From Candidatus Dojkabacteria bacterium (GTDB lineage Bacteria > Patescibacteriota > Dojkabacteria > B142 > JAFGFJ01): DNA of 64,000 nt. The notes under the pieces were generated by a model that did no database searches, was not told the origin of the DNA, and saw nothing but the letters and a program-made list of their open reading frames with translations. Location: NCBI GenBank assembly GCA_016931155.1, contig JAFGFJ010000006.1, forward strand, positions 314,896 to 378,895. The letters run 5' to 3'. Position numbers and translations under genes: made by a program. Shown here in pieces: positions 3,155-56,149 of the stretch; the first letter of the stretch is position 1, and every line of letters starts with the position of its first letter.

Positions 3155-5302
3155 ATGGCAGGTACAGATTACACATCGGTAAAAGATAAAAATCTTTACA
3201 GGAATATTGGAATTATTGCTCATATTGATGCTGGGAAAACTACTACCACTGAGCGTATTCTCTTTTTTACGGGAAAGAAGCACAAACTTGGAGAAGTTCA
3301 CGAAGGAGCTGCGGAAATGGACTTTATGGACCAGGAAAAGGAAAGAGGAATAACTATCCAGTCTGCTGCTACTACTGCTTTCTGGGAAGTTGATAATACC
3401 AGATATAGGGTAAATATTATTGATACTCCCGGGCATGTTGATTTTACAGCTGAAGTTGAGAGGTCATTGAGGGTACTTGATGGAGCGGTTGTTGTATTCG
3501 ATGGGAAGGAGGGGGTTGAACCGCAGTCAAGTAAAGTGTGGCTTCAGGCGGAAAAATATTTTGTACCAAGGCTTTGCTATATAAATAAACTTGACGCAAC
3601 TGGTGGCGATTTTTTCAAAAGCCTGGAAAGTATTCAAAATGAACTCAACAAAAATGCATTTGCGGTTCAGATTCCTGTAGGTACTGAGTCAAACTTTAAT
3701 GGGATTATAGATCTTGTTGATATGAAGGCTCATATGTATAAGGATGAGCTTGGGAAAGAGATAGAAGTATCCGATATTCCGGATGATCTTAAGATAAAGG
3801 CTGAGGAATATAGAGAAAAAATGATTGAGAAAATTGCTGATGCGGATGATGTCATTGCTGAAAAGTATCTTGGCGGGGAGGAAATATCCCGTGAAGAAAT
3901 TGTTGCGGGTATTAGAAAAGGAACTGTCTCTGGTGTGATTTTTCCGGTTTTGGCAGGATCTTCGTACAAAAATAGAGGTATTCAGCTTATGCTTGATTGT
4001 GTTTGCAGGTATCTGCCGTCTCCCCTTGAAAAGATTCAGGTAATAAAAAACGAAGAGACTGGAGAGCAGACAAAATATATTGGAGAGGTAGTTGGGAAAA
4101 ATCCAAAGACTGATGCTGATGAACACAGGAAGGCATCAAATGATGAACCTTTTTCCGGACTTGTTTTTAAAATTGCAATGGATACTCATGTGGGCTCGCT
4201 GGCCTTTATAAGAGTATATTCAGGTAAGCTTCAGGCTGGAACGTATGTGTACAATTCATCTGTCGATAAGAAAGAAAGAGTGGCTAGAATTCTTTTGATG
4301 CATGCAAATCATAGAGAGGAAGCACCTGAGATAAGTGCTGGAGATATTGCGGCTCTTGTAGGGATTAAAGAATCCTATACTGGAAATACAATTTGTGATG
4401 AAAATAATCCTGTTGTTCTCGAGAGTATCAAGTTCTCTGATCCTGTTGTCTCGCTTGCGATTGAGCCAAAAACAAAATCAGATCAGGAGAAAATGGGTAC
4501 AGCTCTTAATAAGCTTTCGCAGGAGGATCCTACTTTTAAAATTTCGACAAATGAAGAAACGGGGCAGACAATTATTTCTGGGATGGGAGAACTACATCTG
4601 GAAGTAAAAGTGGATATTATGAGAAGGGACTACAATGTGGATGTTAATACAGGTAAACCGCAAGTAGCTTACAGAGAGACCGTAGAAGGAGAAATTGAAC
4701 ATAGAGAGCTTCTCAAAAAGCAGACAGGAGGTGCGGGACAATTTGCCGATCTCACTATCATTCTTTCTCCGAATGAGCGAGGGAAGGGGTATGAATTTAT
4801 TGATAAAATCAAGGGTGGAGCGATTCCAAGAGAATTTATTCCTTCAGTTGATAAAGGAATTCAACAGGCACTTTCTACAGGGGTAATCGGAGGATTTCCG
4901 GTAGTGGATGTGAAAGTTGAGCTGGTTGATGGATCCTACCACGAGGTTGACTCAAATACCGATACATTCAAAATTGCAGCGAACAGAGGTTTCAAGGAAG
5001 CAATGAAGAAGGCTTCTCCTATTCTACTTGAACCAATTATGAAGCTTGTAGTGAATACTCCGGATGAATTTGCAGGAGACATAACAGGAGCGGTTGCTTC
5101 AAAGAGAGGACAGATTAAGAAAATGGAATCAAAAGGTAATTACCAGGAAATCGAAGCAGAGGTTCCTCTTGGTAATATGTTTGGCTGGACGGGGGACATG
5201 AGGTCTATGACTAAAGGAAAAGCGAATAGTGTGATGGAATTTTCGCATTACCAGAAAGTACCTGAAAATCTTGTGGATCAACTACTCGGAAAGAGCGAGT
5301 AG
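3155..5302 (+). CDS. fusA: Elongation factor G
   Basis: GIIAHIDAGKTTTTERILFFTG... G-domain and full-length EF-G domains II-V. Confidence 0.95.
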   Translation: MAGTDYTSVKDKNLYRNIGIIAHIDAGKTTTTERILFFTGKKHKLGEVHEGAAEMDFMDQEKERGITIQSAATTAFWEVDNTRYRVNIIDTPGHVDFTAEVERSLRVLDGAVVVFDGKEGVEPQSSKVWLQAEKYFVPRLCYINKLDATGGDFFKSLESIQNELNKNAFAVQIPVGTESNFNGIIDLVDMKAHMYKDELGKEIEVSDIPDDLKIKAEEYREKMIEKIADADDVIAEKYLGGEEISREEIVAGIRKGTVSGVIFPVLAGSSYKNRGIQLMLDCVCRYLPSPLEKIQVIKNEETGEQTKYIGEVVGKNPKTDADEHRKASNDEPFSGLVFKIAMDTHVGSLAFIRVYSGKLQAGTYVYNSSVDKKERVARILLMHANHREEAPEISAGDIAALVGIKESYTGNTICDENNPVVLESIKFSDPVVSLAIEPKTKSDQEKMGTALNKLSQEDPTFKISTNEETGQTIISGMGELHLEVKVDIMRRDYNVDVNTGKPQVAYRETVEGEIEHRELLKKQTGGAGQFADLTIILSPNERGKGYEFIDKIKGGAIPREFIPSVDKGIQQALSTGVIGGFPVVDVKVELVDGSYHEVDSNTDTFKIAANRGFKEAMKKASPILLEPIMKLVVNTPDEFAGDITGAVASKRGQIKKMESKGNYQEIEAEVPLGNMFGWTGDMRSMTKGKANSVMEFSHYQKVPENLVDQLLGKSE

Positions 5303-25399: not shown

Positions 25400-26095
25400 A
25401 TGAAAAAAATTACGGTTATTATATTCGCTGGAATTGTCCTTCTAGGGCTTGCTGTTTGGTCACCATGGAACAGGCTGGATTTCTCTTGGCAAAGACTTCT
25501 GGGAATTGAAAAGCCGGAAGGTATGGCAGGGCTTACAGTCTATTCACTTGGGGGGAATATGGAGGTAAAAATAGATGGAGAGTTGAAGGGAGAAGTAAAT
25601 CTTGCCAATTCTCCTCTTGAAATACACGATGTTGTTCCTGGTGAGCATAAAATTGAGTTAATTAGAAAAGGTTCACAGGATAACATTTATGCCGAGTATT
25701 TTAAAAATTTAAATTTTGAGGGTAACATAAATTCAATACTAAGTTATGAGCTTGGACCAACAGAAGAGTATAGTTCGGGCTATGTATTTTATGCTGTATC
25801 CAAAGGGAATTATGATGCTCTTGCTAGTTTGTCTGTGGTATCAAGACCTGAGCAGGCAAAGATCTTTCTAGATGGAATAGATGTGGGAAATGCTCCTTTA
25901 AGAGATGTAAAAATTTCTCTCAATCAATTACATAGGCTCAGGTTTGAGAAGGAGGGATTTGAATCACTTGAATTTGAAATTTTACCAAAGGAACAGGCAG
26001 ATCGAGATAAGCTTAAAGATTATAGTCTGGCAGTTGAGGCTCGACTGTTTAAGCTTCCAATAAATATAGTAGAGGAAGTATCAAATGAGAAATGA
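25400..26095 (+). CDS. Membrane-anchored PEGA-domain protein (two PEGA-like repeats)
   Basis: N-terminal TM; repeats such as VYSLGGNMEVKIDGELKGE and VSRPEQAKIFLDGIDVGNAPL resemble PEGA beta-sandwich modules. Confidence 0.5.
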   Translation: MKKITVIIFAGIVLLGLAVWSPWNRLDFSWQRLLGIEKPEGMAGLTVYSLGGNMEVKIDGELKGEVNLANSPLEIHDVVPGEHKIELIRKGSQDNIYAEYFKNLNFEGNINSILSYELGPTEEYSSGYVFYAVSKGNYDALASLSVVSRPEQAKIFLDGIDVGNAPLRDVKISLNQLHRLRFEKEGFESLEFEILPKEQADRDKLKDYSLAVEARLFKLPINIVEEVSNEK

Positions 26096-29000
26096 AGCTA
26101 ATAAGCTAAAAAGTACGAGTAAATACCCAACCTCAATAATTGTTAAGGGTGTTGATACCATTGGTGTAGAGCTTGCAGGTTCACTTATTGAACAGGGGGG
26201 GTATGTAATTATGATAGACACCTACAATGAGGAATCTTTCGGGAAAATAAAACATCTGTTGGAAAAAGATCTGTTTACATTTGTTGATTTTTCAGCTCTT
26301 TCTCATCTGGAAGATGATTTGAGGAGATTGGATTATGTTTTTTTTCTGGGACATCAGGAGACTGACATCGAAAATGAAATTTCTACTCAAGAATTTCTCG
26401 AAGTATCAAATTACTTGAATGCGATTCTTGACCTTTCAACTAAATTTGAAGCTAAATTCTTATTAACAAATTCGATAAGAGCACATAGGAGACTGATAGG
26501 AGAGCAGGACGTTCATCTCAATTTTGATCTAGAAAAGACTAAAAAACACACGGTATATTCAGAAGTTGAAATTCAAAGATATGCAGAAAGTTTGGTGATG
26601 GAGTACTACGAGAAGGTTTCTTTGAATGTAAGAATTTTGAGAATGGGAGAAGTAATTGGTGAGGCTGTTGAGTTTAAAGAAAAGACTCCTCTTGGAAAGC
26701 TTATATTTGATGCAATATCAGGAAATGACCTAGAGATAACTGGTGATGGTCTTGATGAAGAGTATTATGTTCATTATCTTGATGCTGTTTACGGATTATT
26801 GAAGGGTGAATTTACTCCAAATACTAAGGGGAAGATTTTTTCGTTGGCAAATCAAGAGCCGGTTACTACATTATCTTTAGCGTATAAGGTTCAGGAATTA
26901 GAGCCAAAGGCTGGAGAAATAAAATTTGTAGAAAAAAAAGGTCCACTGTCACTCAAACTATACAAGCCAGCTGAAAACCTGGCAGTTATCGGCTGGAGGC
27001 CAAAAGTATCTTTTGACAGAGCCCTGTCACAGTCTATTGAACAAGCATATAACCACTTTAGTATCGAATCTTCTAGTCAGGTGGAAGATGTAAGGGATGA
27101 AAAAAAGAATGATGTGCTTTCCAAAAAACTTAAAAACTTCTTTTTTATCTCAGACAATAACGGAGAAAAGGAGGATACATATAAGCCAAAAGGAGAAGGC
27201 TATGGTGCTCTTTCGAGACTTATTGCAGAAAGAAAATCTCAGGAAATGGGAAGAAAAGGTAGCATTGTTCTGGCAAATGACAAACTAAGAGAAAAGGTCA
27301 AGGGTCAAAATCAGAAACCTGCTATTCAAAGATTGGGTACTAAAGCAAATAAGTTTTATGACAGAATTAAGGTTCAGTTTAATTTCCTTACTAGATTGAC
27401 TCTTAGTGAATTTGCTCTCTATTTGTTTCTTGTAATGATTTTGGCAGTGGTATATTTCGGAGTAGTATCTCCATTACTTAGTCTTGGTAAAGATGTGTAT
27501 TTTGGGAACAGAAATCTTGAAGAAGCAAAAAATAGATTTATTAGTAATGACATAATTGGTGCTAGGGAATCTGCCAAGAGTTCTCTCAATAACTTTGATG
27601 CTGCAGAGAAAACACTAAACAGATTTGAAGCATTTTTTAATCTTGTTTCCCAGAAAGAAGTATTCATTTCAGGGACTACTCTCCTGAGAGGAGCAAAAAT
27701 GTACTCTGAAGGTCTTGAACAATCATTCTCAGCTGTCTCTCCAGCGTACGAGTATTTCGAGAAGTTTGAAGATAATGTCTATTACAGACCGAATGACGGG
27801 AATCTTCTTGTTTCTGAGTCCAGTGCCGATTATTCAGAGTATCTTCAGAAGATGTCAGGAATGGAGATAGTAGCAGATGATGGGATCAGCAAAATAGTAT
27901 CAGCAACAGCTCTTATGTCAACTGCAAGAAAGAACTATTTACCTAAAACAGTAATAGAAAAAATAAATTCTATTGTAAATAATATTGATGAGACTGAGGC
28001 TGAGCTTCAAAGTGCAAAAAAAACGATTAGATATTTACCTGATCTACTGGGAGGAGATGGCCCAAAATCTTACATTATTATTCTCCAGGATAACTCAAGA
28101 TATAACCCTTCAGGAGGCAAAATCAATTCATATGCTTTCTTAACATTTGAAAAAGGTGGTTTAAAATCTATTAAGGTTGAAAATGCATCCAGCCTAAACC
28201 TGTCATTTGATAGGTTGAATCCAAAAACACTTGACCAGATCAATCTGATTTCGTTTCAGAATCTAAAAGTAGAGGACGTAACTCTCAGTGATTTTCAGCT
28301 CATAAATGATTTTGATCTGTTTAGCAGTGAAATTATTCCTTACCTTGAAAATTATTTTGAGAGGGATATTGATGGCGCCATATTTTTAAATATTAACAGT
28401 CTTGAAAAATTAATTGAATTGTATGGCGGAATTGAAGTCGAGCAAATTGAATTTGACGGGAAAAATCTTCTGATGAATGTTGATCTGGTTCTAAGAGACA
28501 ATAGGGAGGAAAATAGAAGAACAGAGATTATTACTCAGGTATTTGCGCTTGTGCTTCAGAAAATATTCACTTCAACAGGAGAAAAAACGCTGGAACTTGC
28601 TTCTCTTTCAAATGTTCAGCTGGAAGTAAAGGATATGATGCTTCAGTTCGAGGGTGAATATTATCAGGAGCAGATTGAAACAAATAATTGGAATGGGAGG
28701 TTTAACAACAACTCAGATTTTATTAAGATTGCAGTGGTTTCAAAGGCAAGGGAATTTTCTCAAACAAAATATCCTAACTTAAATATTGATATAAATGATA
28801 GGTTGAAGTCTGACTTAACAACTGTTAAACAAGTTACAATTGAACCTAAAAGTCTTGAAGATCTTGATTATGTGACTGTATGCCTTCCTGCTGGAGCTAC
28901 AGAATTAAATTTTGGTGAAATTAATCCTTTACTGTACAACCAGAATTTTAGTGCTGGAAATGAGTGTGTGAGTATAAAATTTGGTCAAATAAGCAGGGCT

Positions 29001-29234
29001 GTGATATCATACAAGACCCCAGCTTTTGAAAGTGTAAGGGGCAATAGTTACAATTACAACGTAAGTATCCAAAATACTCCTGGACTCAATCTGATTTATG
29101 ATTATGAGTTGGAATTTGATCCGGGTTTGTACCCTCTTGAGTATGACGATAGAGGATTCCTCCAAAGAGATAAGCTGATATATGCAGGTACTCTTGATGG
29201 AAATTTAATTTTGAATTTAAAATTCGGAAGATGA
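26085..29234 (+). CDS. Large single-pass membrane protein: N-terminal degenerate NAD-epimerase/SDR-like Rossmann domain, TM helix, ~600-aa extracellular domain (DUF4012-like by recall)
   Basis: The N-terminus shows epimerase-like blocks (ITGDGLDEEYYVHYLDAVYGLL) but lacks an intact GxxGxxG and a YxxxK lysine. TM at about aa 435-460. The ectodomain motif LLGGDGPKSYIIILQDNSRYNPSGG resembles DUF4012, from memory only. Confidence 0.5.
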   Translation: MRNEANKLKSTSKYPTSIIVKGVDTIGVELAGSLIEQGGYVIMIDTYNEESFGKIKHLLEKDLFTFVDFSALSHLEDDLRRLDYVFFLGHQETDIENEISTQEFLEVSNYLNAILDLSTKFEAKFLLTNSIRAHRRLIGEQDVHLNFDLEKTKKHTVYSEVEIQRYAESLVMEYYEKVSLNVRILRMGEVIGEAVEFKEKTPLGKLIFDAISGNDLEITGDGLDEEYYVHYLDAVYGLLKGEFTPNTKGKIFSLANQEPVTTLSLAYKVQELEPKAGEIKFVEKKGPLSLKLYKPAENLAVIGWRPKVSFDRALSQSIEQAYNHFSIESSSQVEDVRDEKKNDVLSKKLKNFFFISDNNGEKEDTYKPKGEGYGALSRLIAERKSQEMGRKGSIVLANDKLREKVKGQNQKPAIQRLGTKANKFYDRIKVQFNFLTRLTLSEFALYLFLVMILAVVYFGVVSPLLSLGKDVYFGNRNLEEAKNRFISNDIIGARESAKSSLNNFDAAEKTLNRFEAFFNLVSQKEVFISGTTLLRGAKMYSEGLEQSFSAVSPAYEYFEKFEDNVYYRPNDGNLLVSESSADYSEYLQKMSGMEIVADDGISKIVSATALMSTARKNYLPKTVIEKINSIVNNIDETEAELQSAKKTIRYLPDLLGGDGPKSYIIILQDNSRYNPSGGKINSYAFLTFEKGGLKSIKVENASSLNLSFDRLNPKTLDQINLISFQNLKVEDVTLSDFQLINDFDLFSSEIIPYLENYFERDIDGAIFLNINSLEKLIELYGGIEVEQIEFDGKNLLMNVDLVLRDNREENRRTEIITQVFALVLQKIFTSTGEKTLELASLSNVQLEVKDMMLQFEGEYYQEQIETNNWNGRFNNNSDFIKIAVVSKAREFSQTKYPNLNIDINDRLKSDLTTVKQVTIEPKSLEDLDYVTVCLPAGATELNFGEINPLLYNQNFSAGNECVSIKFGQISRAVISYKTPAFESVRGNSYNYNVSIQNTPGLNLIYDYELEFDPGLYPLEYDDRGFLQRDKLIYAGTLDGNLILNLKFGR

Positions 29235-29695
29235 AACATAAGACTGTAATAACGAAAGAAGGTTTAAAGGATTTGAAAAATGAGCTTGATACCAGGAAGG
29301 ATAAGTTGAAAGAGATTGCTGATAAAATTGATGAGGCACGTCAGCAGGGAGACCTTTCTGAGAATGCTGCTTATACTACGGCTCTTTCAGAGAAAGAAAT
29401 GAATGAGGCGAAAATTAAGGAACTGGAAGATAAAATAAGTGGCTCGATAGTAGTTGAAGCTGATCCTTTAAATCCAGAAGTTGAACTTGGCGAGAAGGTT
29501 CTGGTGCGGCGGAGTTCTGATAACAAAAGGTTAACATATGAAATTGTTGGGATTGAAGAATCCAATCCGAGTGAAGGGAAAATATCTATAGGCTCTCCTA
29601 TTGGCAAGGCTTTGGCACATAAGAAGAAGGGAGATAAAGTAAAAGTTAAACTGCCATCTGGAGAGGAGGAGTTTTTAATTGAGGAAATTGCATAA
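29231..29695 (+). CDS. greA: Transcription elongation factor GreA
   Basis: N-terminal coiled coil with GDLSENAAY acidic tip motif and C-terminal FKBP-like domain. Confidence 0.88.
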   Translation: MKHKTVITKEGLKDLKNELDTRKDKLKEIADKIDEARQQGDLSENAAYTTALSEKEMNEAKIKELEDKISGSIVVEADPLNPEVELGEKVLVRRSSDNKRLTYEIVGIEESNPSEGKISIGSPIGKALAHKKKGDKVKVKLPSGEEEFLIEEIA

Positions 29696-29715
29696 TCAGT
29701 TTTCTCCTGAAAATT

Positions 29716-30981
29716 ATGGAAAGACATTCAGTGCCCCAAAATATTATGGATGTCGAGTTCAAGCTTTTTGGAAGCCTGACCGTAAGACAGTTCGCTAACC
29801 TTGCAGGATCTATTGTCGTTGCGGTTATTTTATATTTTTTTAATATTCCCGGAATTATCAAATGGCCAGCAATCGTCGGTTTTGTTTTCTTGGGCATAAG
29901 TTTGGCACTGGTTAAGATAAATGGTCAAACATTTGGTACTTGGCTTGGCAATTTTCTGGCTTCTATGTTTAGTTCCCAGAGGAAAATATGGAAGAAAGAT
30001 CCGAAAGTTCCTGAGATACTTACAAAGACTTACCGTCCACGAGTAAGTAATGAACAGCTTGTTTCTGCGAAGAAAAAAGAGTTACCTCCTTTTCTACGTG
30101 AGGATATAATTCAATCTACAAACGTAGTAGATGAAGAGGAGGAAGAGCGGCTAAAGAAATTAGAAAAATACATTCTTGGTGGTACCTCTTCAACGATAAG
30201 TGAGCAATTAATTTCAGACGAAGAAAAAGCACAACGACCGGTAATAATTGATCCTTCAGATCAAAATCTTGCTGGCACAATGAATACGGCAAATGAGGAT
30301 AATTATTCTATAAATCAGTCGGACGAATTCGCAGTAATTGGAAAGAAGATGGCTAATCAGAGAGAGCGACCGATAAGCTCAAGACTTGTGCATAAGAACC
30401 TTGCGGAAAACATAGGAATTGCTGTAAGTGAAGATACTAAAGAGTCCGGTTTGGGCAAGGAAAAAGAAAAAAAGTCAGAAATAGGTTATCTTTCTGAGAA
30501 ACCTGTTAATGATATGAACAGAGGATTAGATGTGAAAAGGAGTTCTTCCGACGAATTGATAGAGGCTAATAAAATACTGCAGGAAAGGATACAGGAACTT
30601 ACAGAAAAAGCGAAAAAATCTCCTGATGACTCTCAGATAGCTCAAAAACTTGCAGAGATGGAAAAACGTCTGGTGGAAATTCAGTCGGGAGGTTCGTTCG
30701 CTAATGAAAAAATAGTATCTCAAAAACCAAATGTTATTAGTGGTATAGTAACTGATAAAGAAAATAAATTACTTCCTGATGTTAGGGTGTTGATTAAGGA
30801 CAGAAGGGGTTTTTTGGTTAGATCACTGATTACTGATAAGCAAGGTTACTTTGTTACGACAACTTCACTTCCTGACGGCGATTATTTAGTTGAATTTGAA
30901 AGCGATAGACATCCTTTTGACCAGTATAAAGTTAACCTGAACGGGTCTTTGAAAGATACGTATAAATTTACTGCCAGATGA
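29716..30981 (+). CDS. PrgI/VirB3-like membrane protein fused to a long coiled-coil and a C-terminal CarboxypepD_reg-like beta-sandwich domain
   Basis: N-terminal FKLFGSLTVRQFANL plus two TM helices resembles the PrgI family, which sits upstream of VirB4 in Gram-positive T4SS. The C-terminal ISGIVTDKENKLLPDVRVLIKDRRGFLVRSLITDKQGYFVTTTSLPDGDYLVEFE resembles the CarboxypepD_reg fold. Confidence 0.5.
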   Translation: MERHSVPQNIMDVEFKLFGSLTVRQFANLAGSIVVAVILYFFNIPGIIKWPAIVGFVFLGISLALVKINGQTFGTWLGNFLASMFSSQRKIWKKDPKVPEILTKTYRPRVSNEQLVSAKKKELPPFLREDIIQSTNVVDEEEEERLKKLEKYILGGTSSTISEQLISDEEKAQRPVIIDPSDQNLAGTMNTANEDNYSINQSDEFAVIGKKMANQRERPISSRLVHKNLAENIGIAVSEDTKESGLGKEKEKKSEIGYLSEKPVNDMNRGLDVKRSSSDELIEANKILQERIQELTEKAKKSPDDSQIAQKLAEMEKRLVEIQSGGSFANEKIVSQKPNVISGIVTDKENKLLPDVRVLIKDRRGFLVRSLITDKQGYFVTTTSLPDGDYLVEFESDRHPFDQYKVNLNGSLKDTYKFTAR

Positions 30982-31000
30982 TTTATCTTATTAGTTAATA

Positions 31001-31684
31001 ATGGCGTTTTTAGGAAGAAAAGAAACAACAACTCAGGAACATCTTGATATTGAGGATGTCAGAGATGATCTTGTTGTGTTAAAAAATGGTAACGTTTCTC
31101 TTGTTATGGAGACGACTTCTTTGAACTTTGATCTTCTTTCGGAAGAGGAACAGGATATACGAATTCTTGCCTTTGCAGGGCTTATGAACTCATTGAATTT
31201 CCCTGTACAGATAGTTGTTAGAACAGAAAGAACAGACGTAACTGATTATGTAGATAAGCTAAAGATCTATAAGGAAAAACAGATTTCGTTGGCCTTAAAA
31301 AGACAAATAGAGATTTACATGCAATTTATTAAGAATCTTACTGTGAACACCGAGGTTCTTGATAAAAGATTCTTTGTTGTTATACCAGGAATAATATCAA
31401 GTATACAAAGAACTAGTGCTGTGAGACAGATCTTCGGTAAACCAGTAAAAATTAAAAATATCGAGGAGGTGCTTGAAAAAGCCAAATTACTTCTTTATCC
31501 AAAACGTGATCATCTGCTGAAGCAGTTTCAAAAAATGGGGATAATTGCAGAGCAACTAAAAACTGATGATTTAATACGTTTGTATTACGGTATTTATCAA
31601 CCGGATACTCCTGGAATTAAGAAATTAATTTTGAAAAAACAGGATTTTTCTACTGGGATTGTAGAAACTTTAAAAGAAGAATAA
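31001..31684 (+). CDS. VirB4/TraC-family T4SS ATPase, N-terminal domain fragment (separate ORF)
   Basis: HLDIEDVRDDLVVLKNGNVSLVMETTSLNFDLLSEEEQDIRILAF matches the N-terminal block of Gram-positive VirB4 homologues (Tn916 Orf16/TcpF type). Confidence 0.6.
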   Translation: MAFLGRKETTTQEHLDIEDVRDDLVVLKNGNVSLVMETTSLNFDLLSEEEQDIRILAFAGLMNSLNFPVQIVVRTERTDVTDYVDKLKIYKEKQISLALKRQIEIYMQFIKNLTVNTEVLDKRFFVVIPGIISSIQRTSAVRQIFGKPVKIKNIEEVLEKAKLLLYPKRDHLLKQFQKMGIIAEQLKTDDLIRLYYGIYQPDTPGIKKLILKKQDFSTGIVETLKEE

Positions 31685-31688
31685 CAAT

Positions 31689-33635
31689 ATGTGGATATTT
31701 GGAAAAAGCAAAAAAGAAAAGGAAAAAGAGAAGGAACAGACAAGTCAGTCAGAGGATCTTGAAGAGAAGGCAATTGAAAAATTCGCTGAGGGATTGATTG
31801 ATGTAAAAGATCTGATAGCTCCGTCAGCGATGGAGGTGGATTTTAACGATGTTCTTGTAGGAAATAAGTACTTTAGAACTTTCCTTGCTACTGGATTTCC
31901 AAGCCATGTCGGACCAAATTGGCTTTCTCCACTTATCAATTTTGACTTTCCTGTAGATATAAGCACGTTTTATTATCCTGTGGATAGTTCAATGATAATG
32001 CAAAGACTCAAACGAAAGATTGGAGAAATGGAGGCAACAATCAGTCTTGATCTTGAAGCAGGAAAAGTGGTTGATCCATATGTTAAGGTTGCACTTGAAG
32101 ATGCAAAGAATTTACAGGAACAAATAGCAAAAGGTACAGAGAAATTTTTTCACTTTGCTCTTTATGTAACTATTCGAGCAGGCAGTATCAGGGAGCTTGA
32201 AAAAATCTCGAAGAATCTTATTTCAACAATGTCTTCTATTAGTGTGATTCTAAAGGTGGCTACTTTGCAGCAGGAACAAGGTTTTCAGAGTGTTGTACCT
32301 GTAGGAATAGACAAGATCTATATGACCAGAAATATGGATACGACCTCTTTGGCGACCACATTCCCATTCGTTAGCTCAGAGCTTACTATGGATACTGGTA
32401 TTTTGTACGGAATAAATAAACACAATAGAAGTCTTGTGATTTTTGACAGGTTTGAACTTGAAAATGCTAATGCAGTTGTTTTTGCAACTTCCGGGGCGGG
32501 AAAAAGTTATATGGTAAAGCTTGAGGCTATGAGAAGTCTTATGTTCGGGACTGAAATACTGATAATTGATCCCGAAAGAGAATATGAGAAGCTAACGAAA
32601 ACAATTGGAGGAGAATACGTATCGTTTTCGCAAGATGGCGCGCAAAAATTGAATCCATTTGAGCTTTCAGGAATTTATGACAAAGATGAAGACGAGCTAA
32701 GAATGAAAATTCTATCACTTCACGGCCTTATGAGGATTATGATGGGTGGAGATTTTTCTCCGGAAGAATCTGCAATACTTGATAGGGCACTTATTTTGAC
32801 GTATAAAGAAAAAGGCATTACGGTTGATCCTGTCACACACAAAAAAGAACCACCTCTTCTTGAGGATTTATATAAGATTCTCCAGGCAATGGCAGAGCCT
32901 CAAGCTCATAATCTTGCGACAAGACTTGAGAGGTTTGTAAGAGGAAGTGCAGCTGGTATTTTTGACAGAAAATCAAATATTGAGATTAAGAATACATTTA
33001 CTGTTTTTAGTATTCGAGAGTTGAGTGATGACCTAAGGCCTATAGCAATGTATATGATGCTTGATTTTATTTGGACAAGAGTGAAAAGACTTCGAAAGAA
33101 AAGACTTCTAATAGTGGATGAGGCATGGTGGATGATGCAGTATCCAGATGCAGCAAAATTTATCCACTCAATGGCAAAAAGAGCCAGAAAGTACGGTCTT
33201 GGGCTTACTACAATTACTCAAGATGTTGAGGACTTTTTGAGTACGGATTACGGGAAAGCTGTTGTTACAAATTCATCAATACAAATATTAATGAAGCAAA
33301 GTCCTGTAGCTATAGATAAGATTCAGAAGATATTCTATTTGTCTCAAGGTGAGAAGAACTATCTACTTTCAGCAGGTATTGGGGAAGGTCTATTCTTTGC
33401 CGGATCAAATCATGTGGCAATTCAGGTAATTGCGAGTGAAAATGAGCATAATCTAATAACTACATCTTATAAAGATATGGAGAAAGAGGAGAAGAAAAAA
33501 GCGGCATTGGCAGAAGAAGCTGTAAAAAATGCCGGAATTGGTATTGCAGATATTCCTGAAAATACAAACCAGCAAGTTTCCCCTACTGATAATATTAATT
33601 CCTATACTGGTAATACTTCTTCCAATGCGGTATAA
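31689..33635 (+). CDS. VirB4-like T4SS ATPase, central + C-terminal ATPase domains
   Basis: YFRTFLATGFPSHVGPNWLSPL middle-domain block; Walker A FATSGAGKSY; Walker B LLIVDEAWWMM. Confidence 0.8.
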   Translation: MWIFGKSKKEKEKEKEQTSQSEDLEEKAIEKFAEGLIDVKDLIAPSAMEVDFNDVLVGNKYFRTFLATGFPSHVGPNWLSPLINFDFPVDISTFYYPVDSSMIMQRLKRKIGEMEATISLDLEAGKVVDPYVKVALEDAKNLQEQIAKGTEKFFHFALYVTIRAGSIRELEKISKNLISTMSSISVILKVATLQQEQGFQSVVPVGIDKIYMTRNMDTTSLATTFPFVSSELTMDTGILYGINKHNRSLVIFDRFELENANAVVFATSGAGKSYMVKLEAMRSLMFGTEILIIDPEREYEKLTKTIGGEYVSFSQDGAQKLNPFELSGIYDKDEDELRMKILSLHGLMRIMMGGDFSPEESAILDRALILTYKEKGITVDPVTHKKEPPLLEDLYKILQAMAEPQAHNLATRLERFVRGSAAGIFDRKSNIEIKNTFTVFSIRELSDDLRPIAMYMMLDFIWTRVKRLRKKRLLIVDEAWWMMQYPDAAKFIHSMAKRARKYGLGLTTITQDVEDFLSTDYGKAVVTNSSIQILMKQSPVAIDKIQKIFYLSQGEKNYLLSAGIGEGLFFAGSNHVAIQVIASENEHNLITTSYKDMEKEEKKKAALAEEAVKNAGIGIADIPENTNQQVSPTDNINSYTGNTSSNAV

Positions 33636-33643
33636 ATAAAAAG

Positions 33644-34204
33644 ATGTTTCCACTAGATATTTTTACAAAACAATTCAACCTGAGTGGGCTAGTACTTATA
33701 GCCTCTGTTGCTATTTTTTCTTTGGCAGTAATTATTCTTTTGGTGAATGTTGTTATATTAAACAGGAAGCTAAAAAAAGCTACTACACCGACGTATGGTT
33801 TTGCAGGAAAGCCAATATATCCCATTATTGCAACATTGCTAATATCTGTATCTATACCTCTAGCTGTATATTCTTTATCTCAGGAGACTACTTTTGAACA
33901 AAAAGCAGAAGAAAATGTGATTCTACAGAGTAGTCATTATGTGGTATCAAGAGATGGGGAGAATTTACGGCTTGAGTTTAATGTTGTTCCATATGTAGAT
34001 GGGGTAGCTTGGGGAGAAAAGTCGTTTGATATTTTCTGGTCATTTAAGGGAAAAACATCCAAAACTAGCTATGAGTTTAATAAATCTGCGATTAATCCCA
34101 GTAAAATGACAATTACTTTGCCAAAAGGTGAGTATGATCTTACTATTCTTGTTACTTATGAGAATAGATCTCAGAGGTTAGAACAAAAGCTTGTTCTAAA
34201 ATAA
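33644..34204 (+). CDS. Hypothetical membrane protein (2 TM + ~100-aa extracytoplasmic domain) downstream of VirB4
   Basis: Hydrophobic segments at aa 15-40 and 60-80; no recognised family. Confidence 0.5.
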   Translation: MFPLDIFTKQFNLSGLVLIASVAIFSLAVIILLVNVVILNRKLKKATTPTYGFAGKPIYPIIATLLISVSIPLAVYSLSQETTFEQKAEENVILQSSHYVVSRDGENLRLEFNVVPYVDGVAWGEKSFDIFWSFKGKTSKTSYEFNKSAINPSKMTITLPKGEYDLTILVTYENRSQRLEQKLVLK

Positions 34205-34233
34205 TTCTTGTTTGTGCGTGCTATAATTATTTC

Positions 34234-34626
34234 GGTCTAGTCAGAACGGTCGCTAAGCGTGAGCTTAGAGGAAAGTCCGAACTCCTCTTGGCACAATAGT
34301 CAGGACAAGGTACCTTGGAGACAAGGCAGGGAGTGATCTCTGGGATTAGAGCAACAGAAAGTAAGGAGCCTGCGAATTGCAGGCGATCTTGAAAGGGTGC
34401 CTCCGGGTTTTTCTGGGGGGCGTACATGAAATTTCATGTATGACGTGTAAGAGACCACCGGTCACGATAGTAATATCGAGATGCTGGTAATCCCTATCGG
34501 GAGCAAGATCAAAGTGTAGATCGCAAAGTGTTTGTTCTTTTGATTAATCAGAACAAATACTGCTAGAGAAATGACCGTCATTCTGGTGTTGCCAGAAAGA
34601 ACAGAATTCGGCTTATTGACTAGACC
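34234..34626 (+). ncRNA. rnpB: RNase P RNA, bacterial type (M1 RNA)
   Basis: GAGGAAAGTCCGAACTCC (P4 5' strand) and ACAGAATTCGGCTTA (P4 3' strand) covary with the E. coli GGG/CCC pair. The P1 helix GGTCTAGTCA...TGACTAGACC closes the ~393-nt molecule. The ORF-track ORF 34227-34427 (-) is spurious. Confidence 0.85.
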
Positions 34627-34734
34627 ATTTTTTCAACCACTTCAGGAGTATTTCCATTTGGGTGCATAATACTTCCTGTATAGAAACCATTATTTCTTGA
34701 AAATTTCAATTTACAGTGGGAACACATAGATACA

Positions 34735-35433
34735 TTATCTTCTTGATGTTCCTTTTACCCTTAAGAAGAAGTATAGCAGTGTACTGAGAGATTGGACGGT
34801 GGCAGCAACATAAGTAAATGCGGCAGCGTTCAGGACTTCTTTTGCTTTTTCTATTTCAACGCCATCAAGTAGAGAAAACTCTCTAATGAATTTTAACGCT
34901 CTTTTACTTGCGTCAAGTTCTACGGGGAGTGTCAAAAATGAAAATACAGTAGCTGAAGAAAATAATGTAATTCCTAACCAGGAAATCTGTCCTAGACTCA
35001 AAATGATACCAATTATTAAAAGAGCGTAACCCGTATTTGTAGTAATTCCAACTATTGGTGCAACAAACGATCTGATGCGAATGGCGAGAGTTCCCTCAAT
35101 ATGTTGTGAAAGGTGTCCGGTTTCATGTGCTGCTATTGCAACAGAAGCAATGGACGGAGTTCTACTTACTTCAGAGGAGAGAAGAATCGTTGAAGTAATT
35201 GGATTATAATGATTATTTAAATCATTGTTACCTTCCTCAAAAATAACCTGATAGTTCTTGGCCTTACTTATTGTATATACTGTGTCTACTCCGTTTATTC
35301 CTCTTGCATTCAAAGAATTAGAATACTTTCTGTATGTAGACGAAACTATATGAGAAGACAGAAGTCCTACAAGTAGTGCTGGAAATGAAAAAATTATGTA
35401 TAGTGGATCAAAGTTCATAAGTAATTTTAACAT
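34735..35433 (-). CDS. YugP-like putative neutral zinc metallopeptidase (membrane)
   Basis: HETGH zinc-binding motif and an N-terminal pattern (STYRKYS) matching the Zn_peptidase_2/YugP family. Confidence 0.7.
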   Translation of the reverse strand: MLKLLMNFDPLYIIFSFPALLVGLLSSHIVSSTYRKYSNSLNARGINGVDTVYTISKAKNYQVIFEEGNNDLNNHYNPITSTILLSSEVSRTPSIASVAIAAHETGHLSQHIEGTLAIRIRSFVAPIVGITTNTGYALLIIGIILSLGQISWLGITLFSSATVFSFLTLPVELDASKRALKFIREFSLLDGVEIEKAKEVLNAAAFTYVAATVQSLSTLLYFFLRVKGTSRR

Positions 35434-54240: not shown

Positions 54241-54312
54241 TGAGTAGCTATCTCCGAAGCACTTCAAGTCTCTGTGCATGAGTAGCTCTTCCCGCAGCAC
54301 TTCAAATTCCTG
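54241..54312. repeat. Imperfect 34-bp tandem direct repeat spanning the 3' end/stop codon of the downstream hypothetical gene
   Basis: tgagtagctatctccgaagcacttcaagtctctg followed by tgagtagctcttcccgcagcacttcaaattcctg. The second copy encodes the C-terminal ...LKCCGKSYSC; the first lies just beyond the stop. Confidence 0.7.
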
Positions 54313-55538
54313 TCGTAAGTAGACGGGTCACCGTTCTTTACGTATTTTAAGACCTTTCCGCAGATGTCACATCTCACCGGGTCGGGTCTGTCAGGGGTTG
54401 GTTGAGGTTCAAACCCCGGATTCAATATCGAGTTTACTCTTCCGAATGTGCTGAACTTTTCCGATATACCGCAGGCGCTCATCACATAACCTTCTTGTCT
54501 CATAAGTCTGGCTTGAGCATATCTATCCATTTTTTGAAAATCTGAGAAACCTCCATCTTGATCGTAATTAATCCCTGTTTCTAGCTTCATTACATCATGT
54601 ATATATTTTCTAAATCCGAACTGCAGGACTGCCATTGTTTCATTGATGAAGGAAAGTTCTTTAGAAATATTTTCCCCTTTATTCAATTTTGCGGCCGTCG
54701 CCGTAATCAATGTTCTAAATTCCTCCCTGACTCTTTCCCAAACAAACGTCTTTGCATAAGCCTCAATTAATCTAATTTTCATTTCTTCGAGACCTTTTGT
54801 TCTTTGTTCTATAAAATCGGTTATGATTCTGAGTTTGTTGTCATCAAAGAAGCCTGATGATGCCATTATGCTTAAATCTGAAAGATTATTGCTGTCTGTA
54901 TTAATTGCCAATTCATTCAGTAGTTCCTCATAATCAAGAGTCGAAGTTGCGGGTAGCCATTTTTGTATAACTTTCTCGGTACCATTTTCATTTATAAATA
55001 AAAAGATGGTGTCGTTCCCCAGATAACCTCTTTTTTTTGCTTCTTCGGTAAGTGGCGGGCTTGGGCTGAATTCTACAAAATTTCTTTTATCTCCCATCTG
55101 TCTTGCTCTTCTGAGTTTTTCATAATTGCTCAGATTTATTGTGTTTCTTAAGATTTCAAATTCAGGAATTTGCCCGCTCGCATTATTTATTGCTTCTCTA
55201 TAGATTTCGTCAAGTGTTCTGTTTCCTGTTGCGAGCTTCCACGGTAAATTGCTCTTATCCCAAGGGAGGCTGTATTCATATATTGCAGTAGTTTCTGCGA
55301 TGGGATGCTCAACGATCTGGGTGTATATGTCGGTAAGGCTTTCTGTCAATGCAATGTTCAACAATGCCTCCCTTTCCTCTCCTCCAGCAGATTGGATAGC
55401 TTTTAGAGCCTGAAGTACATAGTTTATTGAGTTTGAGTATCTGTTTGAATACTGCGCCCTGATAGAATCCATACTTAAATCTGCTTTATTGATCGCAAAT
55501 CTCGACGGTTGTATTTCCTGTATGGCTGTTTCGCTCAT
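54264..55538 (-). CDS. Hypothetical cytoplasmic protein with C-terminal Cys cluster (CDICGKV...CCGKSYSC)
   Basis: 424-aa ORF, no recognised family. Confidence 0.5.
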   Translation of the reverse strand: MSETAIQEIQPSRFAINKADLSMDSIRAQYSNRYSNSINYVLQALKAIQSAGGEEREALLNIALTESLTDIYTQIVEHPIAETTAIYEYSLPWDKSNLPWKLATGNRTLDEIYREAINNASGQIPEFEILRNTINLSNYEKLRRARQMGDKRNFVEFSPSPPLTEEAKKRGYLGNDTIFLFINENGTEKVIQKWLPATSTLDYEELLNELAINTDSNNLSDLSIMASSGFFDDNKLRIITDFIEQRTKGLEEMKIRLIEAYAKTFVWERVREEFRTLITATAAKLNKGENISKELSFINETMAVLQFGFRKYIHDVMKLETGINYDQDGGFSDFQKMDRYAQARLMRQEGYVMSACGISEKFSTFGRVNSILNPGFEPQPTPDRPDPVRCDICGKVLKYVKNGDPSTYDRNLKCCGKSYSCTET

Positions 55539-56149
55539 TTCATTTCAGAAACGAGCAGTGTTGAAGAATTAATTTTCATGGCTTTCTGCTCGGAAAGATA
55601 AAATAATCTTGGCTGGTTTTCTGGCTTTTCCAGTGATGGAATTACAGTTGCGGCACAGCAGCGGTATTTCACCGCTTTTCCCATTTAATCCCGAAAAGAG
55701 AACCTGAAATATACTAGAGTAAAAATTATAATTTTGCAAGAAGTGTAGGTCTGATGTATTTGATGTACAACTTCAAGACCTATGTAGCAACTGAGACTCT
55801 ACGGGCTGTACAGGTTCATGAACATATGCAACAGCCATAGTAGAATACGTTGATGTTTCAAATTATTAATGATTCAAACAAAACGGTTGTTGTATAACGA
55901 GTTTAATCTTTAATATGTTTCATCACACGATAGAGAAGGCGAGTAAAATCAGCTTATTTTTTTCATTAACTGTAGAGACTCTTACAGAGAGCCAAGGATA
56001 AACTAGATGCTTGTTATGTATTATATGTAAGACAAGCAAACTCTCAATGAAGGAAGTAGTAGAGACCACGGCTAAGTTTTGCTCATCATTATTGTTGATC
56101 TTTTGCCAAATGAATTGTACTCTGTATTAGTCAGATTCCTGCCCTAATT

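What the first reader, a model, noticed from the sequence alone, without database searches (positions are those of the whole stretch)
31001..33635. VirB4-like ATPase encoded as two adjacent ORFs in different frames, 4 nt apart
ORF 31001-31684 carries the characteristic N-terminal block of Gram-positive VirB4 homologues. ORF 31689-33635 carries the middle block plus Walker A/B ATPase core. The first ends TAA, then CAAT, then ATG in another frame, with a purine-rich AAGAAG just upstream. This is either a genuine two-polypeptide VirB4, split exactly at the N-domain boundary and followed by a KEKEKEKE linker, or a single-nucleotide frameshift (pseudogenisation or assembly error).
Basis: seen in the sequence. 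Interest (0 to 1): 0.6.

Follow-up and report, generated by a model that had tools for sequence, protein, structure and literature searches.

The report
Two-gene VirB4 secretion ATPase, already described
The motor ATPase of this tiny bacterium's type IV secretion system really is encoded as two neighbouring genes, not one gene broken by an error, but the same arrangement is conserved in hundreds of related genomes and has already been published, so it is ordinary.

Summary
ORF1 (31001-31684, 227 aa) ends in TAA, CAAT follows, and ORF2 (31689-33635, 648 aa) starts in another frame.

It is not a frameshift, pseudogene or assembly error.
- All 79 related species-level loci that hold both genes have a closed ORF1 homologue followed by a separate ORF2 homologue.
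- The frame offsets are 0, +1 and +2 in 10, 36 and 33 loci. The junctions range from a 29-nt overlap to a 36-nt gap; TAATG is the commonest.
- In one locus a third gene lies between the two.
- The best 120 ORF1 homologues are free-standing proteins of 188-257 aa, and NCBI annotates both ORFs as intact genes.

ORF1 is the detached first ~200 residues of VirB4, the module called TrsD/TraD or Pfam 'TraC-like'. ORF2 is the rest: a middle block plus the Walker A/B ATPase. The two tile a rare natural single-chain relative (787 aa) collinearly and without overlap. The same VirB3-like, TrsD, VirB4 gene order occurs on staphylococcal pGO1-type plasmids.

The window is a Candidatus Dojkabacteria (Patescibacteria) chromosome. 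A 2025 survey already reported TrsD next to VirB4 in about 1,660 Patescibacteria loci. The finding is already known and of low interest.

The parts
29716..30981 (+). VirB3-like membrane protein (PrgI family) with an unusually long C-terminal extension that contains a CarboxypepD_reg-like beta-sandwich; first gene of the module
   Evidence: Pfam PF12666 PrgI, aa 6-90, E 2.5e-10, 41.2 bits against a cutoff of 27; CarboxypepD_reg at aa 341-398 is below its cutoff. NCBI names it PrgI family protein, MBN1915981.1. A homologue lies directly upstream of the ORF1 homologue in 68 of 80 related loci.
31001..31684 (+). ORF1: free-standing TrsD/TraD-like protein ('TraC-like', PF26593), equivalent to the first ~200 residues of a one-piece VirB4. 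Structured core is about aa 15-200; the C-terminal tail, about aa 202-227, is disordered and variable.
   Evidence: NCBIfam remote hits to TrsD (E 4.6e-6) and to VirB4_plasma profile positions 103-233 of 894. The best 120 of 367 homologues are 188-257 aa. 41% identity to residues 7-199 of the fused relative P0332. hhalign to staphylococcal TrsD, probability 85%. AlphaFold2 pLDDT 76.6. The top 14 Foldseek PDB hits are all TrwK/VirB4 chains.
31671..31691 (+). Junction: TAA in the ORF2 frame (31671-31673), ORF1 stop TAA (31682-31684), CAAT spacer, ORF2 ATG (31689-31691)
   Evidence: Read directly from the sequence. Junctions in 79 related loci run from -29 to +36 nt, with outliers of 150 and 651 nt, in all three relative frames.
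31689..31814 (+). ORF2 N-terminal peptide (MWIFGK, then a Lys/Glu-rich low-complexity run) and linker, aa 1-42; hypervariable among relatives
   Evidence: This head is 34-176 aa long in 79 loci. The N-terminal motif M-[GAS]-[LIFVM]-[FLIM], followed by lysines, occurs in 70 of 120 homologues. The region is absent from the natural fusion P0332.
31815..32396 (+). ORF2 'middle block', aa 43-236: the second half of the classical VirB4 N-terminal domain, highly conserved (starts IAPSAMEVDFN; contains TRNMDTTSLATTFPF)
   Evidence: Together with the ATPase domain it matches NCBIfam conju_CD1110 profile positions 178-734 of 752. Many invariant columns. Aligns to P0332 from residue 213 onward.
32397..33458 (+). 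ORF2 ATPase domain, aa 237-590, with Walker A GAGKS (nt 32493-32507) and Walker B LLIVDEAW (nt 33105-33128)
   Evidence: phmmer to the VirB4 C-terminal domain structure 4AG5, E 8.6e-47. Pfam P-loop_TraG, AAA_10 and DUF87. Motif coordinates. AlphaFold2 pLDDT 77-95 over about aa 290-520.
33459..33635 (+). ORF2 C-terminal tail, aa 591-648, plus stop; a predicted helix then a disordered, poorly conserved stretch
   Evidence: pLDDT below 50 over aa 616-648. Conservation in alignment A3 ends near aa 593.
33644..34204 (+). Small membrane protein (186 aa) of unknown function, downstream in the same orientation; a possible further component of the module
   Evidence: No Pfam or NCBIfam hit. A homologue lies directly downstream of the ORF2 homologue in 23 of 80 loci, all in the closer Dojkabacteria relatives.

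Best explanation
This is a genuine, anciently conserved two-gene VirB4, the motor ATPase of a type IV secretion system.

ORF1 is a free-standing TrsD/TraD-like protein that corresponds to the first ~200 residues of a one-piece VirB4. ORF2 supplies the remaining 'middle block' and the Walker A/B ATPase domain. They sit in a compact chromosomal module of a Candidatus Dojkabacteria (Patescibacteria) genome, in the order VirB3-like (PrgI family), ORF1, ORF2, small membrane protein.

Shown here: the two genes are separate and conserved as separate genes; they are homologous to consecutive, non-overlapping parts of one-piece VirB4.

Inferred:
- The tight junctions (small overlaps or gaps of a few nucleotides in most relatives) suggest co-transcription and possibly translational coupling, which would favour matched amounts of the two proteins.
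- The two polypeptides probably reassemble non-covalently into a VirB4-like protomer that forms the hexameric motor.
- ORF1 probably provides the membrane-proximal surface through which VirB4 N-terminal domains contact VirB3 and VirB8 and pair protomers, as in the R388 system (summarised in PMC12857230). The adjacent PrgI-family protein would be its anchor.
- The disordered ORF1 tail and ORF2 head are probably remnants of an inter-module linker.

No relaxase or coupling protein is present in the window. The machine is therefore probably not conjugative and serves the host-dependent lifestyle proposed for Patescibacteria.
For: Separate genes, conserved:
- 367 ORF1 homologues were found; the best 120 are 188-257 aa, down to 52% identity.
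- None of the best 120 ORF2 homologues contains an ORF1-like region.
- 509 loci in species-representative genomes encode an ORF1 relative. Of the 80 fetched, 79 entries (78 fetched loci plus the window) hold both genes. In each, ORF1 is closed by a stop and ORF2 is separate, in relative frame 0, +1 or +2 (10, 36 and 33 loci). Junctions are typical of operons: TAATG in 20 loci, an 8-nt overlap in 11.
- In L031 a 177-aa gene lies between the two.
- NCBI annotates both window ORFs as intact genes with the same boundaries.

The two halves make one VirB4:
- A natural 787-aa fusion, seen on several contigs from different samples, aligns to ORF1 8-200 at residues 7-199 (41% identity) and to ORF2 43-613 at residues 213-785 (60% identity).
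- The ORF1 profile aligns to residues 53-225 of an 810-aa Streptococcus VirB4, and ORF2 aligns from about residue 239 onward.
- NCBIfam profile coordinates are complementary.
- The Foldseek top 14 hits for the ORF1 model are all TrwK/VirB4 chains.
- ORF2 matches the VirB4 C-terminal domain structure 4AG5 at E 8.6e-47.

Same architecture elsewhere:
- Staphylococcal pSP01 has membrane protein, trsD (227 aa), VirB4-like gene (670 aa).
- A Pontibacillus megaplasmid has a 274-aa protein (29% identity to ORF1, E 2e-26) overlapping a 621-aa CD1110-family VirB4 by 11 nt.

Literature: PMC12102498 reports TrsD, a remote homologue of the VirB4 N-terminal portion, as the most abundant T4SS component in Patescibacteria. 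It counts 2,272 homologues, 1,664 of them next to VirB4, and notes that the TrsD homologue is essential in the cultivated strain ML1.
Against: - Physical association of the two polypeptides is inferred, not shown. No complex could be modelled, and the ORF2 model is poor outside the ATPase domain (mean pLDDT 60; the conserved region aa 32-98 is below 50).
- Sequence similarity of ORF1 to staphylococcal TrsD and to one-piece Firmicutes VirB4 N-termini is weak: 26.6 bits against an NCBIfam cutoff of 200, hhalign probability 85% and 55%, Foldseek E about 1.6e-3 and query TM-score 0.41.
- No function has been assigned experimentally to TrsD (PMC12102498).
- Raw reads for this assembly were not available, so a local error cannot be excluded directly, only by comparison with relatives.
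Confidence: 0.9

Rival explanations
1. A recent single-nucleotide frameshift (pseudogenisation) or a sequencing or assembly indel broke a single ~875-aa virB4 gene in this genome.
For: The ORFs lie 4 nt apart in different frames, and the ORF2 frame is open for only 5 codons upstream of its ATG, so a single indel within 31674-31684 could fuse them. The sequence there is A-rich (AAAAGAAGAATAA), a context prone to indel errors. One-piece VirB4 is the norm outside this lineage, and a fused relative exists within Patescibacteria.
Against: - Both ORFs end and begin at the positions typical of their families. ORF1 homologues are free-standing in the best 120 database hits and in all 79 loci with both genes. 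Frame relations vary, and in 10 loci the two genes are in the same frame, separated by a stop codon.
- Homology does not continue past the ORF1 stop in another frame. This differs from a real frameshift seen in relative L019, where the conserved ELIRLYY motif continues in a second frame.
- A close relative with 89% identity to ORF1 has the same end.
- NCBI annotates both as intact genes.
Confidence: 0.02
2. The two ORFs are joined during translation by programmed +1 ribosomal frameshifting or stop-codon bypass, so the cell makes a single fused VirB4, alone or alongside the separate products.
For: The two ORFs are close together, and a +1 frame relation is the commonest in relatives (36 of 79 loci). 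The A-rich sequence before the stop could in principle be slippery.
Against: - No conserved recoding configuration exists. Relatives show frame offsets of 0, +1 and +2, overlaps of up to 29 nt, gaps of up to 36 nt, and in one case an intervening gene.
- ORF2 homologues have their own conserved N-terminal peptide that starts at the ATG (MG[LI]F followed by lysines). This argues for independent initiation.
- No structured element stands out at the junction.
Confidence: 0.03
3. ORF1 is an independent accessory protein that merely shares ancestry with the VirB4 N-terminus, for example a regulator or adaptor with its own role. On this reading it is not a structural part of the ATPase protomer.
For: [quoted passage not shown]
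- In other Patescibacteria classes the ORF1-type domain carries long P/Q/T/S-rich tails of 100-480 aa. The survey reports that TrsD is not next to virB4 in Gracilibacteria. Both suggest some autonomy.
- The ORF1 fold is predicted with fair confidence on its own.
Against: - ORF2 lacks exactly the segment that ORF1 supplies: CD1110 profile positions 1-177 are missing from ORF2.
- The natural fusion joins the two collinearly with a 13-residue connector.
- Adjacency and tight junctions are nearly universal in the loci examined.
- This rival differs from the main explanation in degree, not in kind.
Confidence: 0.05

Closest known systems
TrsD plus VirB4 of the Patescibacteria type IV secretion system (Quinonero-Coronel et al., Microb Genom 2025, PMC12102498)
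   Same: Same phylum-level lineage and same gene set (VirB3/PrgI, TrsD, VirB4). The location is chromosomal and no relaxase is nearby. TrsD is described there as a remote homologue of the VirB4 N-terminal portion and lies next to virB4 in most genomes. The window is simply one instance of this.
   Different: Nothing substantive. The present analysis adds junction statistics, a natural re-fused form and the mapping of the split point. The word Dojkabacteria does not occur in the main text of the paper.
TrsD/TrsE of staphylococcal pGO1/pSK41-type conjugative plasmids (here pSP01, NZ_KR230047.1); NCBIfam names the family TrsD/TraD
   Same: Identical order and sizes: a small membrane protein in the VirB3 position, TrsD (227 aa, the same length as ORF1), then a VirB4-like ATPase (670 aa against 648 aa), with a 20-nt spacer. 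The ORF1 profile aligns along nearly the whole length of TrsD (hhalign probability 85%, E 6e-6).
   Different: Those are plasmid-borne and part of a full conjugation operon with relaxase and coupling protein. Sequence identity is very low (26% over 85 aa by BLASTP), and ORF1 scores far below the NCBIfam TrsD cutoff (26.6 against 200 bits).
One-piece Gram-positive VirB4 of the CD1110 family (for example the 810-aa protein of S. agalactiae plasmid pR31-snf2-M, L083)
   Same: ORF2 passes the CD1110-family cutoff (392 bits against 325). A PrgI-family gene lies immediately upstream. ORF1 and ORF2 map to consecutive parts of the single chain.
   Different: That protein is a single polypeptide. Here the first ~200 residues are a separate gene product, and each half has acquired a disordered tail or head.
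TrwK/VirB4 of plasmid R388 (cryo-EM structures 7O41-7O43 and 8RTB/8RTD)
   Same: Best structural matches of the ORF1 model. This system provides the mechanistic template: N-terminal domains contact VirB3 and VirB8, embed in the membrane and connect protomers (PMC12857230).
   Different: It is a diderm system with a one-piece 823-aa protein. The structural similarity is weak (query TM-score about 0.4), and the aligned range on TrwK was not reported by the tool.

Membership tests
VirB4 family ATPase (CD1110-type, NCBIfam NF045971) | Whole-protein score above the curated cutoff | tested here: met
   ORF2 scores 392.1 bits against a cutoff of 325, E 4.8e-117. It covers only profile positions 178-734 of 752.
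VirB4 family ATPase (CD1110-type, NCBIfam NF045971) | Walker A and Walker B nucleotide-binding motifs in a VirB4-type C-terminal domain | tested here: met
   GAGKS at aa 269-273 and LLIVDEAW at aa 473-480. Match to the VirB4 C-terminal domain structure 4AG5, E 8.6e-47.
VirB4 family ATPase (CD1110-type, NCBIfam NF045971) | N-terminal ~180 residues present in the same polypeptide | tested here: not met
   Profile positions 1-177 are absent from ORF2. The separate ORF1 supplies them.
TrsD/TraD family (NCBIfam NF041427) | Score above the curated cutoff of 200 bits | tested here: not met
   ORF1 scores 26.6 bits, E 4.6e-6. It is a remote homologue only; hhalign probability 85%.
TrsD/TraD family (NCBIfam NF041427) | Free-standing protein of about 200-230 aa encoded between a VirB3-like gene and a VirB4-like ATPase gene | tested here: met
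   The window order is PrgI, ORF1 (227 aa), ORF2. pSP01 has the same order, with a 227-aa trsD.
Pfam PF26593 'TraC-like' domain | Match to the family model | tested here: inconclusive
   The local Pfam copy returned no hit for ORF1. The database's precomputed annotation lists PF26593 for the identical protein P0001 and for most homologues, and names it TraC-like.
Patescibacteria chromosomal type IV secretion module (PMC12102498) | VirB4 with adjacent TrsD and PrgI/VirB3 homologues on the chromosome, with no relaxase nearby | tested here: met
   The gene order is established. The flanking genes are housekeeping: GreA, RNase P RNA, SecA and the ribosomal protein operon. Pfam scans of the larger ORFs of the window found no relaxase, VirD4 or VirB6 domain.
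Patescibacteria chromosomal type IV secretion module (PMC12102498) | VirB6 and VirB2-like pilin genes associated with the cluster | tested here: not met
   None was detected by Pfam among the ORFs scanned in this 64-kb window. They may lie elsewhere in the genome or be too divergent. The 186-aa membrane protein at 33644-34204 is unassigned.
Conjugative (DNA-transfer) type IV secretion system | Relaxase and type IV coupling protein (VirD4) | tested here: not met
   Not found in the window. The rest of the genome was not available.

The most novel reading that the evidence does not exclude
The fission may matter functionally and not be merely tolerated.
- Each half carries its own short hydrophobic N-terminal peptide (M-G-L/I-F), followed in ORF2 by lysines. 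This could be an independent membrane-binding tag.
- The inter-module linker has been freed to expand into disordered tails of up to several hundred residues.
- The resemblance of the two N-termini could be a footprint of fission by gene duplication followed by complementary loss.

If so, the split would be a shared derived character linking the Patescibacteria system to the pGO1-type and Pontibacillus-type branch of monoderm systems. It would also allow the anchoring module and the motor to be dosed or exchanged separately in a secretion system that is essential for the epibiotic lifestyle.
Probability: 0.15. Interest if true: 0.4.

Novelty: already known. Interest (0 to 1): 0.15.

Why it matters
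It matters mainly as a correct call. An annotator or automated scan should not flag this junction as a pseudogene or assembly error, and should not merge the two genes.

Biologically, the locus is one more instance of the chromosomal type IV secretion module of Patescibacteria. That module is reported to be essential for epibiotic growth in the one strain tested (PMC12102498, citing Wang et al. 2023).

The one point that goes modestly beyond the published description is the precise complementarity of the two genes. ORF2 lacks what ORF1 supplies, and a natural re-fused form joins them with a 13-residue connector. This supports reading TrsD, a protein with no assigned function, as the detached anchoring sub-domain of VirB4. 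That reading is directly testable by co-purification or cryo-EM.

Tried and rejected
- Frameshift or assembly error: rejected on comparative grounds.
- AAGAAG as a ribosome-binding site: rejected, because genes in this window generally lack Shine-Dalgarno motifs.
- Promoter and terminator scan of 29000-34800: counts no higher than in shuffled sequence, and nothing at the junction.
- Profile search of ORF1 against PDB sequences: no hit at E up to 1. Only the fold comparison found VirB4.
- Local Pfam scan of ORF1: no hit.
- Mixed alignment of the fused protein with ORF1 and ORF2 homologues, intended for modelling the assembled protein: MAFFT placed the ORF1 rows on the ORF2 region, so it was not used.
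- AlphaFold2 model of ORF2: confident only in the ATPase domain, with aa 32-98 and 184-257 below pLDDT 50. This is probably because the alignment was shallow (32 sequences at about 70% identity), so it gave no domain-boundary information.
- A 2026 paper on pELF plasmids uses the name TraD for a VirD4-like protein, which is unrelated to TrsD/TraD here.
- The main text of Guglielmini et al. 2014 does not mention TrsD by name. The statement about TrsD homology is therefore cited from PMC12102498.
Full report
**Observation**

The window holds two adjacent plus-strand ORFs exactly as described. ORF1 is 31001-31684 (227 aa, stop TAA at 31682-31684). The spacer CAAT follows. ORF2 is 31689-33635 (648 aa), in a different frame. 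ORF2 starts MWIFGKSKKEKEKEKE and carries Walker A (GAGKS, aa 269-273) and Walker B (LLIVDEAW, aa 473-480). The ORF2 frame is closed by TAA at 31671-31673, so a single indel could fuse the ORFs only if it fell within 31674-31684.

**Context**

The window is a chromosomal segment with uniform composition (35-39% G+C). It contains the ribosomal protein operon, EF-G, SecA, GreA and RNase P RNA. ORF1 is 100% identical to a hypothetical protein of a Candidatus Dojkabacteria metagenome-assembled genome (JW796_03245, contig of 559,650 bp). ORF2 is MBN1915983.1, 'ATP-binding protein', 648 aa, and the upstream gene is MBN1915981.1, 'PrgI family protein'. NCBI therefore calls both ORFs as intact genes with these boundaries.

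The local gene order is:
- DUF4012 protein
- GreA
- PrgI-family, VirB3-like protein (29716-30981)
- ORF1
- ORF2
- a 186-aa membrane protein (33644-34204)
- RNase P RNA

Pfam scans of the larger ORFs found no relaxase, VirD4 or VirB6 domain in the window.

**What the two ORFs are**

ORF2 passes the curated cutoff of the CD1110 family of VirB4-like conjugal transfer ATPases (392 bits against 325). It matches only profile positions 178-734 of 752. Residues 237-590 match the crystal structure of a VirB4 C-terminal domain (4AG5, E 8.6e-47).

ORF1 has no hit in the local Pfam copy. Its evidence comes from other sources:
- Remote NCBIfam hits to TrsD/TraD (E 4.6e-6, 26.6 bits, far below the cutoff of 200) and to positions 103-233 of an 894-position VirB4 model.
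- Precomputed database annotation that assigns ORF1 and its homologues to PF26593, 'TraC-like'.
- An AlphaFold2 model of fair confidence (mean pLDDT 76.6; residues 1-14 and 202-227 disordered). Its 14 best Foldseek matches in the PDB are all TrwK/VirB4 chains of the R388 secretion system. The scores are weak (E about 1.6e-3, query TM-score about 0.41).

**Frameshift or genuine split**

The comparative evidence is decisive.
- 367 ORF1 homologues were found. The best 120 are free-standing proteins of 188-257 aa (median 230), down to 52% identity. An alignment of 40 of them has 29 invariant columns, and their C-terminal ends vary freely in length.
- The best 120 ORF2 homologues are 582-1049 aa (median about 648), and none contains an ORF1-like region.
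- A scan of one genome per species found 509 loci that encode an ORF1 relative, and 80 were fetched.
- 79 loci hold both genes: 78 of the fetched loci plus the window. In all of them the ORF1 homologue is closed by a stop codon and a separate ORF2 homologue follows.
- The relative frame is 0 in 10 loci, +1 in 36 and +2 in 33.
- The junctions are those of ordinary operons: TAATG-type 1-nt overlap in 20 loci, 8-nt overlap in 11, others from -29 to +36 nt.
- In L031 a 177-aa gene lies between the two.
- L019 shows what a real frameshift looks like. Its ORF1 homologue stops early, and the conserved ELIRLYY motif continues in another frame. Nothing of that kind occurs in the window.

The split is therefore ancestral and maintained, not an error.

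**Do the halves add up to one VirB4**

Yes.
- Among the 150 best cluster representatives matching an ORF1 profile, 2,961 in all at E up to 0.001, exactly one is a fusion: P0332, 787 aa (MEK7091100.1).
- P0332 has several cluster members from different sources. It was read on three contigs, and the two places shown come from different samples (an ENA/NCBI assembly and a Logan run). In both, a PrgI-family gene precedes it.
- ORF1 residues 8-200 align to P0332 residues 7-199 (41% identity, E 7e-46). ORF2 residues 43-613 align to residues 213-785 (60% identity). The tiling is collinear and non-overlapping, with a 13-residue connector.
- The ORF1 tail (about aa 201-227) and the ORF2 head (aa 1-42) have no counterpart in the fusion.
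- The ORF1 profile also aligns, weakly, to residues 53-225 of an 810-aa one-piece VirB4 from a Streptococcus agalactiae plasmid (hhalign E 1.2e-4, probability 55%). ORF2 aligns to that protein from about residue 239 onward.

The solved C-terminal domain begins at ORF2 residue 237. The split therefore lies inside the classical N-terminal domain, after its first ~200 residues, and not at the boundary between the N- and C-terminal domains.

**Same architecture elsewhere**

- The staphylococcal plasmid pSP01 (pGO1/pSK41 type) encodes a small membrane protein, then trsD (227 aa), then a 670-aa VirB4-like ATPase 20 nt downstream. The ORF1 profile aligns along most of TrsD (hhalign probability 85%, E 6e-6).
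- A Pontibacillus megaplasmid encodes a 274-aa protein with clear similarity to ORF1 (29% identity over 218 aa, E 2e-26). It overlaps by 11 nt a 621-aa CD1110-family VirB4 that is the best plasmid match to ORF2 (37% identity).
- In a rough neighbour-joining tree of the ATPase portions, the fused P0332 nests among split Patescibacteria loci, with the split Pontibacillus and staphylococcal genes outside them. This suggests that the split predates the Patescibacteria clade and that P0332 is a secondary re-fusion. The inference rests on a simple distance tree and is tentative.

**Anatomy of the junction region**

The linker between the two modules is hypervariable.
- In the 79 loci, the ORF1 tail after the conserved Y-x-P motif is 2-134 aa (median 26). 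The ORF2 head before the conserved IAPS block is 34-176 aa (median 78).
- In other Patescibacteria classes the ORF1-type protein carries P/Q/T/S-rich tails of 100-480 aa.

The 'purine-rich AAGAAG' is not informative. Only a handful of the 41 genes examined in the window have even a short Shine-Dalgarno-like core upstream, and the ORF2 start context is typical of the genome. A promoter and terminator scan gave nothing above background.

**Mechanism**

Shown: two separately encoded, separately conserved proteins that together cover a complete VirB4, next to a VirB3-like gene.

Inferred:
- The tight junctions suggest co-transcription and possibly translational coupling.
- The two proteins probably reassemble into a VirB4-like protomer.
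- ORF1 probably provides the membrane-proximal surface. In R388 the VirB4 N-terminal domains embed in the membrane, connect the protomers of each dimer, and contact VirB3 and VirB8 (review PMC12857230). The adjacent PrgI-family protein would be the anchor.
- Because no relaxase or coupling protein is present in the window, the system is probably not conjugative. This agrees with the published view of Patescibacteria systems.

Physical association was not tested. The ORF2 model was confident only in the ATPase domain, and no complex could be modelled.

**Comparison with what is known**

Quinonero-Coronel et al. (Microb Genom 2025, PMC12102498) report the following:
- It is the most abundant T4SS component detected in Patescibacteria: 2,272 homologues in 2,221 assemblies, 1,664 of them associated with VirB4.
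- Among the monoderm subclasses it occurs only in the pGO1 type.
- It has no assigned function.
- It is listed as essential in Southlakia epibionticum ML1.

The finding is therefore an instance of an arrangement that is already described and already annotated. What this analysis adds is modest: the junction statistics, the exact complementarity with a natural re-fused form, and the placement of the split point within the N-terminal domain.

**Verdict**

- Novelty: already known.
- Interest: low (0.15).

Noticed in passing
window 31001-31012 and 31689-31736; homologues P0001-P0240: Both halves start with the same short motif, M-[GAS]-[LIFVM]-[FLIM]; the commonest forms are MGLFS and MGLFG. It occurs in 73 of 120 ORF1 homologues and 70 of 120 ORF2 homologues. 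In ORF2 a lysine run follows it. It could be a membrane-binding peptide or a footprint of how the gene split arose.
   Followed up: partly
window 29716-30981: The PrgI/VirB3-like protein is 421 aa, against a 91-position PrgI family model. It has a long C-terminal extension ending in a CarboxypepD_reg-like beta-sandwich, which scores below the Pfam cutoff. Long PrgI homologues also occur in related loci.
   Followed up: no
window 33644-34204: A 186-aa membrane protein with no family match sits directly downstream of ORF2. It is conserved in that position in 23 of 80 related loci. It may be an unrecognised component of the secretion module.
   Followed up: partly
L084 4001-6364 and L085 877-3240: A natural one-piece version (787 aa, MEK7091100.1) of the split VirB4 exists in another Patescibacteria lineage, between a PrgI-family gene and a Peptidase_M23 gene. 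It nests among split relatives in a rough tree, which suggests re-fusion by deletion of the junction.
   Followed up: yes
L031 4723-5256: In one Dojkabacteria genome a 177-aa gene is inserted between the ORF1 and ORF2 homologues. By eye its sequence resembles a Nudix hydrolase; this was not tested.
   Followed up: partly
L019 about 4400-4720: In candidate division WS6 bacterium OLB20 the ORF1 homologue is interrupted by a real frameshift or sequencing error: the conserved ELIRLYY motif continues in another frame.
   Followed up: partly
proteins P0246-P0385 (representatives): In other Patescibacteria classes the ORF1-type domain is followed by P/Q/T/S/A-rich low-complexity tails of 100-480 aa. 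In the L045-L080 clade ORF1 is short (about 205 aa) and the extra length sits at the N-terminus of ORF2 instead.
   Followed up: partly
window, whole (41 gene starts examined): Almost no gene in this window has a Shine-Dalgarno-like motif upstream; start contexts are A/T-rich.
   Followed up: no
window 55594-55722 (-) and 54264-55538 (-): A cobalamin riboswitch (60 bits) lies upstream of a 424-aa ORF that has no Pfam match.
   Followed up: no
window 26085-29234: A 1049-aa protein combines an N-terminal NAD-dependent epimerase-like region with a DUF4012 domain. The order DUF4012, GreA, PrgI, ORF1, ORF2 is conserved in 26 or more related Dojkabacteria loci.
   Followed up: no
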